Assembly (NCBI GenBank): GCA_023231475.1 | Contig: JALJEE010002831.1 | Location: 1-42,157 of the forward strand | From: Seison nebaliae | Lineage: Eukaryota | DNA: 42,157 nucleotides | Reading direction: 5' to 3' | Part shown: one piece after another, positions 1,320 to 34,721 of the stretch | How positions within the stretch are numbered: the stretch's first letter is position 1 | How the letters are laid out: each line of letters starts with the position of its first letter | Position numbers and translations under genes: made by a program | The notes under the pieces: generated by a model | Seen by the model: only the letters and a program-made list of their open reading frames with translations | What the model was told of the DNA's origin: nothing | Database searches by the model: none

Positions 1320-2322
1320 ATGTTAGTTGGAATTTTGGTGGAATTCATTTATGTTCTTTCATTGGTGGGTGGTAAACGCATCAAGTCGAACATCGGTTAT
1401 CTTGTGGAAAATATACATATAACGAACACAGAATTTCAAGACGGATCATTTGATATTGATGTAACTGGAAAAAACTTGTACATCGTTAAATCAATTCATG
1501 AAAAACCGACTTTGACAAGTAATACTTTTAAATGTGCATGCAAATTAGCAATTTCTACACACCACAATATCAACTCAGAGAGTTGCGTTGCGGAACTTCC
1601 TCTAGCTACTGAATCGAGATTATTGTCTATTCTCGTAGGAAGAAACGGTTACTCATGGTCTGGTAATCGAAAAGATCCTACAAAACATACCAATCTTCCA
1701 CCACCTGATCTTCAAACCATATCATCCAATTCTCCTCATTATTTCCATACGAGTATCACTTCTTCTATCTATAAGGAAGTTAATTTATATTTTAAAAAGA
1801 AATTGAACTAATATCACTTGTAGATTATATGGGAGATGTATGATTCAAGTTTGAAATTAATGCGCATGAAATTCAATAACTCACGTCCAGTAGACGAGTT
1901 GGATTGGTTCTCCATTTCAAAATTGACGGAGCTGAACGTTTATGGAAATATTTCACCGAACATGGTTGATACTATAAAATCTGCAAGCTTTTTAACTATC
2001 GAGTTACTTTTATTAAACTTTAACAAATTCTAATTCCTAATTAGAGACATCCCATTATTAACTAAAAGTATTTTTGTCGTTGTAACGCTAAAAATGTTAT
2101 ACTATCCCATGGGAACCTACGAAGTGTGTCCATCCATTGGGACGTCTTTTCTTATTTGTCATCAGAAAACTTTACCTGTTATATCTTATCAATCTCATTC
2201 CTCTCACGACGGTCTGTATATGTGTATTATAAGGATTAATTAATTTTTTTTTAGTTTTCAACATGAATGAAGCTTCTCACGTTGTCATAATTGGTCAAAT
2301 ACACCATCCTCTATCAAAGTAA
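1320..2322 (+). CDS. Hypothetical, probably secreted protein (~290 aa, 4 exons: 1320-1778, 1824-2002, 2045-2211, 2255-2322)
   Basis: Three short GT-AG introns (45, 42, 43 nt) join ORFs 1320.. and 1836.. into one open frame ending ...ASHVVIIGQIHHPLSK*. Hydrophobic N-terminus MLVGILVEFIYVLSLVGG; Cys motif FKCAC...SC. Confidence 0.65.
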
Positions 2323-5300
2323 AACTAATGTTCTTCTAGCATAAATAATTCGTCATCAAACAATCATCTCCTATTCATGAAAATAATTGAATCATTTCGT
2401 GCAAAATTTCTTGAACATTTTAAAACAAAAATAATTCACACCTATAATTTAAGAAAAGTAACAGCACCAATTTTTTGAAATAAATTAATATTTTTATTAA
2501 ATAATCACGGTAATATCAGGCTAAATATAATAGATCAGGCTGAATCATTGATTTCCGATGACTCATTTAGTGAATTATCCGTCTTCCTCCTTTGTTTATC
2601 CCTCGGGGATTTGTTGTTATAATAAAACAAAAAAAATTAAAAAGTAAAAAATATTATTATTATTATTTACTTATCGAAATTCCCGATTGGATAAATTAAG
2701 TAAGAGATTCCCATGTAAGAGAATTGACAAAGATGTGGTTGGGTCATATGAGAAAATAAATTTCTGGAAATCATGAAGAAGAATATCACGAAATAAATCG
2801 TAATATAGAATAGTATGAGAAGAGACTGACATGGAAAAAGACTGGATCCAAAAACTGTGAGTGAATATGAAACAGATTATGATGAGAAATCTAAGAAGGG
2901 GGTATCAAGAACCCGAAATTTTTTTGATAAGACAAAAGAGAACTCGCATAGTAAAAAGCCTAGTGTGGTGAAGAGCAGAAAACGATTACATCTGTGAAAA
3001 CCGATCTCTTTATAAACTGATTATAAACACGGTCCTTCGACCGAAAGAGCGTAGGGTGCAAAACACCACCGTTTCCAAGAAGTATAAAGGAAGAACCAAA
3101 CTTTTAAAAAGTTTTTAATTATCTAAATATTTCTAAATTTTTATAAACCATATGATAATGATTACAATTTACAGATTAAATGTTAATTCTTTAAAACCTA
3201 ATTGTTCGTCCATCCAGTGACTTTTTCTATAACCATGTCATAAGTTTCGAAAAGTTCAGTCATCTTTTGTGTTTCATTATTGAAAACTTACAATTTATTG
3301 TTTAGTTTATAATTTATCGGTTCCGAATTTGGTAAACCTTCGCATATTTGGTCATCGCATCAGCTGTTCTGTACAGAAAAATATGAGACGCCTAGATAAT
3401 AACAATGTAAATTTTGCAATACAAACAATACTGAAAATACTTGTGAGAATGCAACACAATAGTATAACTGAATTTATGAAATGAAAAAGAAACACAAGTT
3501 TATTGTCTTATTTTAGCTTATTTTATAATTATTATACTTCTATCAAATATATTACCATTGTCTAACAGATCTGATCAGTAATATAGATGAATTTATCAGA
3601 ATTGTTTTTTATTCAGAATTAATAATTTATTTATCTTTCGATTATATTTTTCAGTTGTAGCAGAAATTGGAGATTTAACTCGAATTAGTAGAACAGACGA
3701 TATTTCCATTTTAACAGTGATCGTATAATTTAATCTCTTTTGACATTTGAGAGTGAAAGAGAGACAGAGAGAATCGGAAGAATCAACAGAGACATTTGAA
3801 TAGTTATTATGTTTAATACAGTTCTAACCCATTTCGATCATTAATTCCCATCATTATTTCGCATGTGGGAGGAGTGAGGTCTGAACTTTAACAGTTTAAG
3901 AAACAGTTCGACAAAGAGTTTTTTATCAATATTTCGACCATTCGTTATTTGATTTCTTAAATATCCAAATGGTTTATTTTAGTTCAATTATCTTTCACAA
4001 TAATTTTTTCATATGTTCGACATGGTTATCGAAATAACTAATGTATTAAATGTCCTAGTAGTCGAACAGGCATCTGATTCGAATAATCACAACTATTATT
4101 AAGTTTGATGTATTTTAGAATTTTTATAATGAGTTTGATAAATAATAATATTTGTAGAAATGTGATCGGATGACGTAAAAATAAGAAGTATTTCTTTCAA
4201 TAAGATAGTCGAAGTTCTTACAAAGTTGTTAGTCCGATGAAAGGAAATGATTTATGAAAGATAATGTAGTCCCATAAATGAGTGGAAGAATAAATTATGG
4301 TGGAAGAATTGTGCATTAATTACTTTACAATATGGAATGGTCGAATGCCAATCAGCTGGACATCAAAAAAATGAATATTAAAAGAGAATCAGTGAATCAT
4401 GTGTTGAATGAATGAGTTACTTTCGGTGATTGTTGAAGAGAAGAACTATGATGATTCATGTGATGGTGAAGTATAAATAGAGTAATCAATCAATATGTGA
4501 ACCAGCTGACATATTAATTGGAATGATGAAAATAAACAAGAGAACCAATTGGCAAGTTGATAGACTCAAATCGTTCTCATATCAGTGGAATAGAGATCAT
4601 ACTTCAGTCTTCTCATTTTTCCTTTTTTTTGGTCAGAGGATGAAAATGAGGAAACGGAAATATTGATTCCATTCAATAGTCTCATCAGACTATTATCGTT
4701 TATTTTCACAGTCTATTATCATCGAACGGAATCGATGGTGGTATTTGGGAAAATGAAACATTTTCATTTCATTTATTGTCAATCATTCAATAGATGAGAA
4801 GTAGTAACGTGATCATAAACGAATGATTGTCGTTAGTAAGTACTATATCAGGAAACTTTTTCATCTTTTCTTTTTCATTTGTTGAACATTAGAAGGAAAA
4901 TAGGTTAATCTCTTTTACAAAAGTATAGAACTGGTAGACGAGAAATTTTTTTCTTTCGGTTTTATTCATCATATCGATATATGAAACATACAGATAGATG
5001 ATCGTTCAACTCGAAGAATGTAACCGCAGACATAAATAGCACACACAACAGATAGTAACTGAGAGAGAGGGACACCACCGCCATCACCACCACCACCACC
5101 ACTATAGAACAGATGATCAGAAAAATGGGAAAGAATACAAAATAAACAATCAATCCTCGAAAGAGATCGATGATGGAGGGTAGAAGAGGAGACGAACGTT
5201 GAAACATGAGGCGAAGAAGAAATTTTCTTTTTACATTTCTCCTTTTCTGCTTTCATGTTCATCAGACACACTAATGATCAGTACACCAACCTATGTCTAA

Positions 5301-32723: not shown

Positions 32724-34721
32724 TTATGAAATTAATAACTGGACGTTTTCTCTCAACATCTCTATGAGATTACCCAAATTTTCACTTCTCTCATCCTTCA
32801 CTTTCCAACAATTGGACAATTCGTGGTATCTATAAAATGAAGAGATAAATTTAAATTATTCCTTCATAAGACAATTCAACGATGGGACACATATCTCACG
32901 CAACGTAGAGATCTCCTACCACTCACCGTAGAGGAGATCGATCAAACATTTCAATTTATCCCGACGGGAATTTCAATTAAAAAAAAAATCACTAAACAAG
33001 TCTTCGTCGTATCGGAAATAAGAGGAGAGTTCCAATCGTTTACCGTCAGAAAGATAATTGAAAATTTCCGAATTACGCAACTCTCCGTAAGGTTGAGCAG
33101 CTAAATTGAATATTTCCCAAATGGTAACGGCACAACTCCAACTGAGTAAAAAAATAATTTTAAAAGGAACATTATGGAAACTAACAGATCGGATTGATGA
33201 GAGACATTTTTGTCATTTTCAAAACATTCCAATGCCATCCATCGATAAGGCAAAAAATTATTATCTATAACAATCTCGTCACAATCATCAATTACTTCAT
33301 TTCCGTCATTCAATTCATCTTTCAATTCGTCTTCATGAAGAGCCAAACCAAAGTCACTTAATTTCAACCAATAACTTGAAAAGATTAAACAATTTCTGAG
33401 AGATATATCTCGATGGATTATCTAACAATGAAAATGGAATTCGAAAATTTCTAAACTTTCCTTTCTTTCAAATATTCAACTGCTCGACACAATTGTAAAG
33501 AGAAGACGGAGAGTGTTAACCGAATTGAATCTTTCGTTTTATTTCGAAAATCTTTTCGCAACAAGAACTCTCTCCCGTTGCCATGCGAAGCAAAACCTAC
33601 GAAATGATAAATATAGACACATAAATAAGATTGAGAGAAAACCTGTAGCGAGAATTGGTGGAAATGATTGAGAGATGAGATTATGCGTCTCATCATCAAC
33701 ATTATTGTCTTCATTCGAAATGAATGAAGGTCCTTTTATACAATAAAACATTCCATATGAAATGAAAGGAGATAAATTTCTTGTTTCACATTCTAATAAT
33801 CTTTTATGAATATCGATCTCATGAGAAAGACAATTATATTCTTTTTTCGTCCAAAAAATTTTGAGCGTTTTAAATGCATACATCTCCTCCTCATTAAAGC
33901 CGACGTTTCCTGTATAGATGTCGCCAAAACTCCCACAATTCACCCATTTATTATTGAATATTCTAAGGAAATTAATTCAAATAATTGACAAAAAGAAAAA
34001 TTGGAACTCTTCTCGATCAATCTCTTTCAATTTGTTCGTAGTCCAATGTCGGAAATATGGAGAGTCGTGAAATTGTTCAATGCACTTTTCATCTTTCCGA
34101 TATTTCAATTTTTCACTTCGATTAAAATTCTAAAAAAATATTTTATAATTTATTTCCCCCAAAAAAATAAACCTCTTCCAGATTGGAAATGAATGACAAT
34201 TTCTCTGAAGATTTCTTCCGATAACACCAAATAAATCCAATGAATATGAGTGGAAGGAGAAGAAGGAAAAGAAAATAGAAATATTTCACGTGTAATTTTT
34301 GCATTTTCAAGAATTTTAATCGAATCCAATTGGTAGTGGAACCAAATCGATTTCTGCCCATACAACAATATTTTCCTTCATCTTCCTTCTTCATTCCATC
34401 GATCGTATACGTCATATTAATCTCATCAAATCGATAGACCATTCCATGAATAGCCGAATAATCTAACAAAGTCTTCCCATTCTTATCGTCACATCGATAT
34501 AATCGAAATTCAGCGACAAGTTCCTCTTGTCGATATGTCGTACAGTTTATAAGAAACTTTTCATTCTCTTTCACTTCGTATGTCGTTCCGGAATAGATGT
34601 TCAATATCGGCTCCTTACCAAATCCCACAACTACCGATGAGAAGAAAAAATCTGATGAATATCATTTAAAACAAATTTCACCTTTTCCAATCAGCCAATA
34701 TAAATTGAAGAGTAAAAACAT
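32724..34721 (-). CDS. Divergent receptor tyrosine kinase (signal peptide, one Ig-like domain, TM helix, kinase)
   Basis: Ig motif FLINC...EDEGKYCCMGRNRFG; TM FYFLFLLLLPLIFIGFIW; kinase motifs NCGSFGDIY, AFKTLK, IIHRDISLRNC, LSDFGLA, LPYRWMALE, SDLWS, QPY, CWK; 7 introns. Confidence 0.88.
32881..32975. repeat. Hairpin-rich dispersed repeat inside the last RTK intron
   Basis: Inverted repeat GATCTCCT(32910-17)/AGGAGATC(32932-39). 32953-32974 matches 2676-2697 in reverse complement at 19/22; related motifs at ~25009-25033 and ~25131-25168. Confidence 0.6.

What the first reader, a model, noticed from the sequence alone, without database searches (positions are those of the whole stretch)
1779..34173. 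Near-invariant GTT 5' splice sites: a shifted spliceosomal donor code
Seen: all 32 donors I placed in SEC14L (8: GTTCGT, GTTCGA, GTTTGT, GTTAGA, GTTCCT, GTTGGA, GTTAGG, GTTCAT), MLCK (7: GTTCAT, GTTATA, GTTATT, GTTCAA, GTTAAC, GTTTTC, GTTCAA), V-ATPase a (11: GTTGGG, GTTTCC, GTTCGT, GTTTAA, GTTTCT, GTTAGT, GTTAGA, GTTCGA, GTTTCC, GTTTTT, GTTTCA) and the RTK (6: GTTTAT, GTTCCA, GTTTTC, GTTTAG, GTTAGT, GTTTAG) have T at +3; most are fixed by conserved protein motifs. Only 12 of 32 have +5 G and +4 is unconstrained. In SEC14L an overlapping GTAGTT offers a GTA donor, but the conserved Gly in KVTVCGK requires the GTT one. Known: animal donors are typically GT(A/G)AG, with +3 paired to U1 snRNA position 6 and +4 to +6 read by the U6 ACAGAGA box. 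Inference: this lineage may have altered U1/U6 snRNAs or donor-recognition proteins (U1-C, LUC7, SNRNP27K, METTL16, PRP8) so that GUU is the main determinant.
Basis: partly seen in the sequence, partly recalled or inferred. Interest (0 to 1): 0.88.

Follow-up and report, generated by a model that had tools for sequence, protein, structure and literature searches.

The report
Animal whose introns start GTT
In four genes of the tiny marine rotifer-relative Seison nebaliae, 36 of 37 intron starts confirmed by published transcript maps read GTT instead of the GTA or GTG usual in animals, which likely means its splicing machinery, probably the U1 RNA, has been rewired to read a different signal.

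Summary
Confirmed. The window is a whole Seison nebaliae contig. A published transcript-to-genome map covers it at identical coordinates. It gives 37 donors in four genes: 36 GTT and 1 GTG. Unused intronic GTs are GTT 44% of the time (P about 3e-12).

The introns are old: at 9 V-ATPase positions shared with bdelloid rotifers, bdelloids mostly use GTA at 7, Seison GTT at all 9. Bdelloid loci have the same background composition. The ordinary register survives (-2A, -1G and +5G enriched); no shifted register is seen, and GTC is absent.

Best guess (about 50%): U1 snRNA has A at position 6, as reported for Entamoeba (GUUUGU with a matching U1). No Seison U1, U6 or spliceosomal protein could be examined, and genome-wide frequency is untested. 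My paper searches found no report of this for an animal. This scan's earlier notes record GTT donors in protists such as Bonamia, but none in Seison.

The parts
9608..12271 (-). SEC14-like gene (NCBI SNEBB_003698, 526 aa). Nine introns, all GTT; donors at 12251, 11505, 11375, 11283, 10900, 10767, 10626, 10468, 10286
   Evidence: Exact protein mapping; transcript junctions; homology to SEC14L2
10576..10626 (-). 51-nt intron with tandem choice: GTT donor used, in-frame GTA donor 3 nt upstream (10629) not used
   Evidence: Gly kept as in human SEC14L2
14994..23710 (-). Long myosin-light-chain-kinase-like gene (2425-aa open frame; MLCK label from kinase motifs and weak PDB hits). Ten introns, all GTT; donors at 22478, 21485, 20305, 16358, 16169, 15915, 15718, 15478, 15269, 15094
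   Evidence: for the kinase match. Transcript contigs break at low-complexity stretches, so the single-gene join is inferred
26811..31034 (-). V-ATPase subunit a gene (SNEBB_003701). Eleven transcript-supported donors, all GTT (30838, 30692, 30504, 29969, 29507, 28189, 27903, 27682, 27566, 27408, 27125); alternative exons between 30504 and 29265. A twelfth GTT donor (29704) is only in NCBI isoform P0121
32724..34721 (-). Ig-domain receptor tyrosine kinase-like gene (SNEBB_003703). Seven introns: six GTT (34172, 34007, 33642, 33456, 33185, 32997) and one GTG
34631..34681 (-). The one confirmed exception: first RTK intron, AAG|GTGAAA, 51 nt. An in-frame GTT 9 nt downstream is not the one used
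   Evidence: Transcript rows
33422..33456 (-). 35-nt GTTTAG intron, shortest in the set; in transcripts and favoured by kinase homologs, missed by the NCBI model
1779..2044 (+). Two predicted GTT introns (1779-1823, 2003-2044) in a gene without a Pfam match; unverified
   Evidence: Frame-joining only; no Pfam hit; no transcript row found
14140..14836 (+). Small unannotated gene model with three GTT introns (14374, 14538, 14630) and a possible second exception, CAG|GTATGG at 14221 (45 nt); unverified
   Evidence: no transcript row found

Best explanation
Seison nebaliae removes ordinary short GT-AG introns whose third base is T at 36 of 37 transcript-mapped donors in four genes, and this likely reflects a rewired major spliceosome, most probably a U1 snRNA with A instead of pseudouridine at position 6 that would pair with U at +3. 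Shown: the junctions, the +3 T, the old age of the introns and the unchanged register. Inferred: an ancestor like today's bdelloids tolerated GTT at about a quarter of donors when +5G compensated. A U1 copy with A6 then turned +3 U from a tolerated mismatch into the matched base, and old GTA donors were replaced site by site. An A opposite +3 accepts only U, whereas pseudouridine accepts A or G. That would explain why +3 is stricter here than in other animals and why GTC is absent. With little other signal in the donor (0.9 bits outside +1 to +3), the tight intron length (29 of 37 are 35-71 nt) and T-rich interior probably supply the rest by intron definition. Strong exon ends (AAG|) still let a rare GTG donor through.
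For: 36 of 37 GTT against 0.44 background. Bdelloid-like loci: 21 of 78 distinct donors have +3 T and 50 have +3 A, P 7e-14 against Seison (donors not fully independent). Other animals: 1 GTT of 35. Seven of nine shared V-ATPase positions are GTA-majority in bdelloids. Bdelloid GTT donors carry +5G in 18 of 21, bdelloid GTA donors in 27 of 49, Seison GTT donors in 13 of 36, so Seison's GTT behaves like the matched class. Against 69 unused intronic GTT sites, -2A (22 of 36), -1G (11 of 36) and +5G (13 of 36) are enriched at P 7e-4, 1e-4 and 6e-4, while +6G is not. 0 of 37 GTC, although 40 of 157 unused GTs are GTC. Precedent: five Entamoeba species have GUUUGU donors, a U1 with A opposite +3 and +4, and an unchanged U6 box (bioRxiv 10.1101/2022.06.08.495308, passages).
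Against: No Seison U1 sequence was seen; the window holds no Rfam match. The same preprint reports that most lineages with changed donors (yeasts, Giardia, Trichomonas, Micromonas, Thecamonas) keep a standard U1. The animal Fritillaria, with far stranger intron ends, keeps its U1 5' end too (PMC13326754, passages). A GTG donor is used even though an in-frame GTT lies 9 nt away, and a GTA donor may be used at 14221. The sample is four genes on one contig. The gain in U1 pairing under an A6 model (5.4 to 6.3 pairs) follows by construction and is not evidence.
Confidence: 0.5

Rival explanations
1. The snRNAs are standard, and changed or lost proteins around the U1 or U6 helix (U1-C, LUC7, TIA-1/Nam8, SNRNP27K, SNU23, PRP8) favour U at +3. 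A uridine-binding pocket or a U-rich intron-binding factor would define the donor.
For: Most lineages with atypical donors keep standard U1, and Fritillaria keeps U1 and U6 motifs but changes U2AF and m6A. LUC7, SNRNP27K and METTL16 are known to shift donor classes (PMC11732430, passages). Seison has lost many core genes (35% of metazoan BUSCOs missing, PMC8351084 passage). Positions +7 to +10 are T-rich.
Against: The protein effects in the passages I read concern +4 and A against G at +3, not a switch to U. +7 T is no more frequent than at unused GTT sites (17 of 36 against 29 of 69). No protein was examined.
Confidence: 0.22
2. Selection happens at hand-over to U6: the base that faces +3 (G44 of the ACAGAGA box) has become A, or G44 now forms a wobble pair with U+3, while U1 is standard.
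For: +3 faces U6 G44 and interacts only weakly with it (PMC11732430 passage). The Entamoeba preprint notes that U at these positions could improve U6 pairing. +5G enrichment fits U6 as well as U1.
Against: An unchanged G44 should accept C at least as well as U, yet 0 of 37 donors are GTC. Eukaryotes with the standard box prefer A at +3 (bdelloids and other animals here). Entamoeba and Fritillaria both keep the box.
Confidence: 0.15
3. Standard U1 pairs one base out of step, or with +3 bulged, as at rare human GUUAAGU sites (Roca and Krainer 2009; recalled, paper not held).
For: 16 of 36 GTT donors follow an exonic A (against 17 of 69 decoys, P 0.048). Earlier scan notes describe such classes in protists (unchecked).
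Against: The shifted register predicts G at +6 and A at +5: +6G 4 of 36 and +5A 10 of 36, both at decoy level, while +5G and -1G are enriched. The shifted-register pairing score does not separate donors from decoys (P 0.1-0.4), whereas the standard register does (P under 1e-6, on the earlier 34-donor set).
Confidence: 0.05
4. No machinery change: a relaxed spliceosome lets T-rich mutation pressure or TA avoidance fill +3, or these four genes are a local oddity.
For: TA is depleted in the window (0.66 of expectation) and intron interiors are 44% T. Only one contig was examined.
Against: Relaxation would give about 44% GTT, not 97%. Bdelloid loci have the same or stronger bias (GTT 43-51% of all GT; TA 0.48-0.71) and still use GTA. 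Four unrelated genes agree.
Confidence: 0.05
5. The GTT introns are copies of a recent intron-generating transposon, or U12-type introns.
For: None beyond the uniform start.
Against: Nine V-ATPase introns sit at positions shared with bdelloids. The 35 introns share only short matches of 13-29 nt with each other. None of 35 has the U12 donor motif.
Confidence: 0.02

Closest known systems
Entamoeba GUUUGU(U) donors with co-evolved U1 (Roy and Bowser, bioRxiv 10.1101/2022.06.08.495308; abstract, passages and section 22 read)
   Same: Near-universal U at +3 of major-class GT-AG introns, in the standard register.
   Different: Entamoeba is an intron-poor protist with a rigid 6-7 base motif (88-90% GUUUGU). 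Seison is an intron-rich animal with alternative splicing; only +3 is fixed, +4 is nearly free and +5G is 35%. The U1 change is shown in Entamoeba and only predicted here.
Bdelloid rotifer donors (metagenome V-ATPase loci grouping with Adineta)
   Same: Short AT-rich introns of about 50-60 nt at the same positions; GTT already at 21 of 78 donors.
   Different: GTA is the majority (49 of 78) and GTT nearly always comes with +5G.
Non-canonical introns of the larvacean Fritillaria borealis (PMC13326754, passages)
   Same: An animal with a genome-wide change of splice signals handled by the major spliceosome.
   Different: It breaks the GT-AG rule itself and keeps the U1 5' end, using U2AF paralogues and m6A changes. 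Seison keeps GT-AG (40 of 40 junctions) and changes +3.
Shifted or bulged U1 register at atypical human GUU donors (Roca and Krainer 2009; recalled, not held)
   Same: Donors begin GUU.
   Different: Those show the consensus displaced by one base (G at +6); Seison keeps G at +5.
+4U donors of yeasts, Giardia and Trichomonas with unchanged U1 (as summarised in the Entamoeba preprint)
   Same: Lineage-wide donor change.
   Different: Concerns +4, is linked to U6 methylation, and occurs in intron-poor genomes.

Membership tests
Major (U2-type) spliceosomal introns | GT-AG ends removed from mRNA | tested here: met
   40 of 40 transcript junctions have one GT-AG placement
Major (U2-type) spliceosomal introns | Animal-type GTR donor consensus | tested here: not met
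   1 of 37 GTR
Major (U2-type) spliceosomal introns | Residual U1/U6 register signals (-2A, -1G, +5G) | tested here: met
   Enriched over unused GTT sites, P 1e-4 to 7e-4
Entamoeba-type co-evolved donor/U1 system | Near-universal U at +3 | tested here: met
   36 of 37 in four genes; genome-wide not tested
Entamoeba-type co-evolved donor/U1 system | U at +4 with rigid GUUUGU | tested here: not met
   +4: A13 C10 G2 T12; +5G 13 of 37
Entamoeba-type co-evolved donor/U1 system | U1 5' end changed to complement the donor | not testable with these tools
   No genome held; no snRNA in the window
Shifted/bulged U1 register donors | Consensus displaced by one base (+5A, +6G, +7T) | tested here: not met
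   All at decoy level
Minor (U12-type) introns | RTATCC donor (motif recalled) | tested here: not met
   0 of 35
Introner-derived introns | Sequence-similar copies at new positions | tested here: not met
   Only 13-29 nt matches among 35 introns; 9 positions shared with bdelloids

The most novel reading that the evidence does not exclude
Seison nebaliae is an animal that has rewritten the 5' end of U1 snRNA (A at position 6) and converted nearly all of its inherited introns from GTA/GTG to GTT while keeping an intron-rich, alternatively spliced genome. Bdelloid rotifers preserve the permissive intermediate state.
Probability: 0.45. Interest if true: 0.85.

Novelty: new variant of a known kind. 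Interest (0 to 1): 0.74.

Why it matters
[quoted passage not shown] In print, a U at +3 with a matching U1 turned up in my searches only for the intron-poor protist Entamoeba. An intron-rich animal with alternative splicing that has done the same makes the route testable. Bdelloids, Seison and its sister group, the thorny-headed worms, would show whether the machinery or the sites changed first, and whether a permissive GTT+5G stage comes before the switch. If U1 proves standard, it instead points to an unknown protein or U6 contact that reads +3. There is a practical side too: models trained on GTR donors will misplace this animal's introns, and one NCBI junction here disagrees with the transcripts.

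Tried and rejected
No whole genome is held. No RNA holder was listed among sequencing runs. Runs X1 and X2 behave as DNA and show no intron joints; X6 and X7 laid nothing. Rfam found nothing at gathering level and only 6 weak matches in the window. A homolog search with the 1300-aa MLCK exon found nothing among proteins of 715-2275 aa; the joined frame is 2425 aa, outside that range. Motif scans for U1 genes gave 4 viral and 47 prokaryote-collection hits. By inspection of all 51 and Rfam on 20 of them, one is a real U1 (L072, standard 5' end, host not identified). No Seison U1 or U6 sequence was obtained, so the snRNA question stays open. Laying DNA contigs at 80% on 26800-28300 showed low-depth pieces about 80-88% alike; their aligned ends run 5-7 bases into the introns at donors 27903 and 28189. 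That is too indirect to count. A +3-neutral gene finder, with each gene left out of training, recovered 25 of 35 introns exactly. Its predictions outside the four genes are noisy and mixed (GTT, GTG, GTC, GTA) and were not counted. The NCBI models were rejected as independent proof because one junction disagrees with transcripts. An early hint that long introns have more +5G+6T (4 of 8 against 3 of 27, P 0.03) weakened on the transcript set (3 of 8 against 3 of 29). The annotation paper (Hagemann et al. 2024, doi 10.1007/s10750-023-05268-6, known from a reference list) and Roca and Krainer 2009 are not held. Shifted register, U12 type, introner and composition explanations were rejected as above.
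Full report
Identity. A homolog search with the large V-ATPase exon returned a 100% match named SNEBB_003701 of Seison nebaliae on a contig of 42157 bases, the window's length, with three annotated isoforms. 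SEC14L (SNEBB_003698) and the receptor kinase (SNEBB_003703) are from the same contig. Seison is a rotifer-group animal. No whole genome was available.

Check 1, annotation. Exact mapping of the NCBI proteins gave 12 of 12 GTT donors in the V-ATPase, 9 of 9 in SEC14L and 6 of 7 in the kinase. These models are predictions, so I sought independent support.

Check 2, homology with no weight on +3. My spliced aligner scores any GT alike. With five non-Seison V-ATPases it placed six donors identically in all five runs (margins 23-76) and a seventh in four of five; all are GTT. In the variable regions its picks were unstable (margins 0-7) and included GTA, GTC and GC sites, which I disregarded. A gene finder blind to +3 and trained without the test gene recovered 25 of 35 introns exactly.

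Check 3, transcripts. Supplementary file 2 of PMC8351084 is a GMAP map of Trinity transcripts. The held copy is cut at 4 million characters; I read parts 1, 79, 80 and 81 of 400 and ran searches. Contig k141_1465 matches the window's coordinates. Its rows give 40 distinct junctions, each with one GT-AG placement, and 37 donors: 36 GTT and 1 GTG. They confirm the GTT choice at the SEC14L tandem site and confirm the GTG exception at 34681. Only minus-strand intron-bearing genes appear in the held part, so the + strand candidates at 1779 (GTT) and 14221 (GTA) are unverified.

Chance. Among 157 unused GTs inside these introns, 69 are GTT, 40 GTC, 27 GTG and 21 GTA; 36 of 37 has P 3e-12. The interval for the true share is 0.86-1.00 if these genes are typical.

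Shape of the signal. At +3 the information is 1.8 bits; +4 is A13 C10 G2 T12 and +5 is A11 C7 G13 T6. Compared with 69 unused intronic GTT sites, real donors still have more -2A, -1G and +5G (P 7e-4, 1e-4, 6e-4), borderline more +4A (P 0.05) and -1A (P 0.048), and no excess of +5A, +6G, +6T or +7T. The register is therefore the normal one. Total information from -3 to +6 is about the same as in bdelloids (6.55 against 6.37 bits) but has moved into +3 (0.91 against 1.87 bits outside +1 to +3). Median intron length is 54 nt; acceptors are AG with T at -3 in 24 of 35.

Relatives. A scan of metagenomes with the Adineta vaga V-ATPase gave 59 loci; I analysed 43 and left out 16 of low identity or short match. 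Twenty-three were aligned as bdelloid-like, giving 140 introns. I kept the 126 with margin of at least 10 and removed duplicates, leaving 78 donors: +3 A 50, T 21, G 5, C 2. Eleven of these loci were put in a quick tree (SH-aLRT only; the careful search did not finish). They group with Adineta at 100 and Seison is their sister at 96 on a long branch. Twenty other loci gave 35 distinct donors: 22 GTA, 12 GTG, 1 GTT. At nine V-ATPase positions shared with Seison, bdelloid loci (three near-duplicate loci dropped) are GTA-majority at seven and GTT-majority at two; Seison has GTT at all nine (the match at position 682 is approximate). So old introns were converted, not newly inserted. Background is no explanation: bdelloid loci have GTT at 43-51% of all GT, the window 40%. 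Bdelloid donors are homologous across species, so P values using them are optimistic. Monogononts and acanthocephalans were not sampled.

Mechanism. In bdelloids GTT needs +5G (18 of 21, against 27 of 49 for GTA; P 0.016). In Seison it does not (13 of 36). That is what one expects if U at +3 has become the matched base. The +3 base is read first by U1 position 6 and then faces U6 G44 weakly (PMC11732430 passage). An A opposite +3 would accept only U, fitting 36 T and 0 C; a G would also accept C. The Entamoeba preprint reports exactly such a U1 change with an unchanged U6 box. Against this, the same text says most lineages with odd donors keep standard U1, and the tunicate Fritillaria does too. 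I put U1 A6 at 0.5, proteins at 0.22, U6 at 0.15 and the rest lower. None of these was tested directly. The confirmed GTG exception and the possible GTA one are both first introns with AG at the exon end, against 7 of 36 GTT donors. This hints that strong exon-side pairing excuses +3, but n is 2.

Weak genome-wide hint. GMAP wrote most short gaps as deletions rather than introns. From memory, it does this when its human-trained splice scores are low. By hand count, 3 of 30 short junctions in the window and 6 of 98 in other contigs of the four parts read were written as introns. The similarity suggests other contigs have equally non-standard donors, but I have no control genome, so this is not counted as evidence.

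Literature. Eleven search attempts gave results (terms combining Seison, rotifer, acanthocephalan, GTT/GUU, donor, U1, U6). I saw listings and abstract starts, and none showed a report of GTT donors in Seison or another animal. Passages read: PMC8351084 (no donor analysis among passages for intron, splice or snRNA; neither supplement contains splic, snRNA or intron in the held text), PMC12256650 (0 hits for splic, intron, snRNA), PMC10125929, PMC10639083 (no Seison), PMC11732430, PMC13326754 and the Entamoeba preprint (its supplements are closed). The Seison annotation paper in Hydrobiologia is not held and may describe intron signals, so novelty is provisional. Earlier notes of this scan record GTT donors in Bonamia and other protists and none for Seison; I did not check them.

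Verdict. It works like the Entamoeba system at +3 but is not the same motif, and membership (a changed U1) is untested. New variant of a known kind; interest 0.74.

Noticed in passing
window 29265-30504 (-): V-ATPase transcripts splice the donor at 30504 to four acceptors: exon 30130-29970, exon 29629-29508, a longer form 29653-29508, or direct to 29264. The NCBI isoform with both exons and a 19-nt micro-exon was not seen in the rows read.
   Followed up: partly
window 33422-33480 (-): The NCBI model of SNEBB_003703 uses a 59-nt intron and drops 8 residues before the kinase catalytic loop; transcripts and homologs give a 35-nt intron.
   Followed up: yes
window 9500-29400: Window contigs have about 0.6 of the depth of three other long contigs laid in the same runs (16 against 26-29 in X2; 9 against 13-15 in X1) and show almost no allelic differences. 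It may be hemizygous (sex-linked) or haplotype-split; only three comparison contigs.
   Followed up: no
window 26878-26930 and 27728-27782: A second, paralogous V-ATPase a locus exists on another long contig in all four runs.
   Followed up: no
window 26860-28297: Low-depth (2-4) contigs about 80-88% alike in coding parts point to a second related genome in the runs. The paper describes two S. nebaliae lineages, which would be a natural test of donor conservation.
   Followed up: partly
window 40915-41808 (-), 64-570, 25171-25795, 12665-12800: A reverse-transcriptase frame (Pfam RVT_1) with a similar fragment at the contig start, and two multi-copy stretches of raised depth; probably decayed retroelements.
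   Followed up: no
window 5552-6898 (+), 31577-32236 (+), 37445-39631 (+), 7536-9374 (+): Intronless alpha-tubulin (named from its sequence, recalled), ferritin (Pfam) with a hydrophobic N-terminus, a bZIP-like protein (below cut-off) and a 612-aa frame with no Pfam match.
   Followed up: no
window 10849-10900, 15423-15478, 30634-30692, 33422-33456 (-): Several transcript isoforms retain single short introns; not quantified, could be unfinished splicing.
   Followed up: no
L072:1-158 (-): A eukaryotic U1 snRNA gene (143.8 bits, standard 5' end) sits in a 795-base contig of a gammaproteobacterial bin: host contamination in that genome collection.
   Followed up: partly
L031 V-ATPase intron at residue 493: A GC-AG intron at a position where related bdelloid-like loci have GTA.
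   Followed up: no
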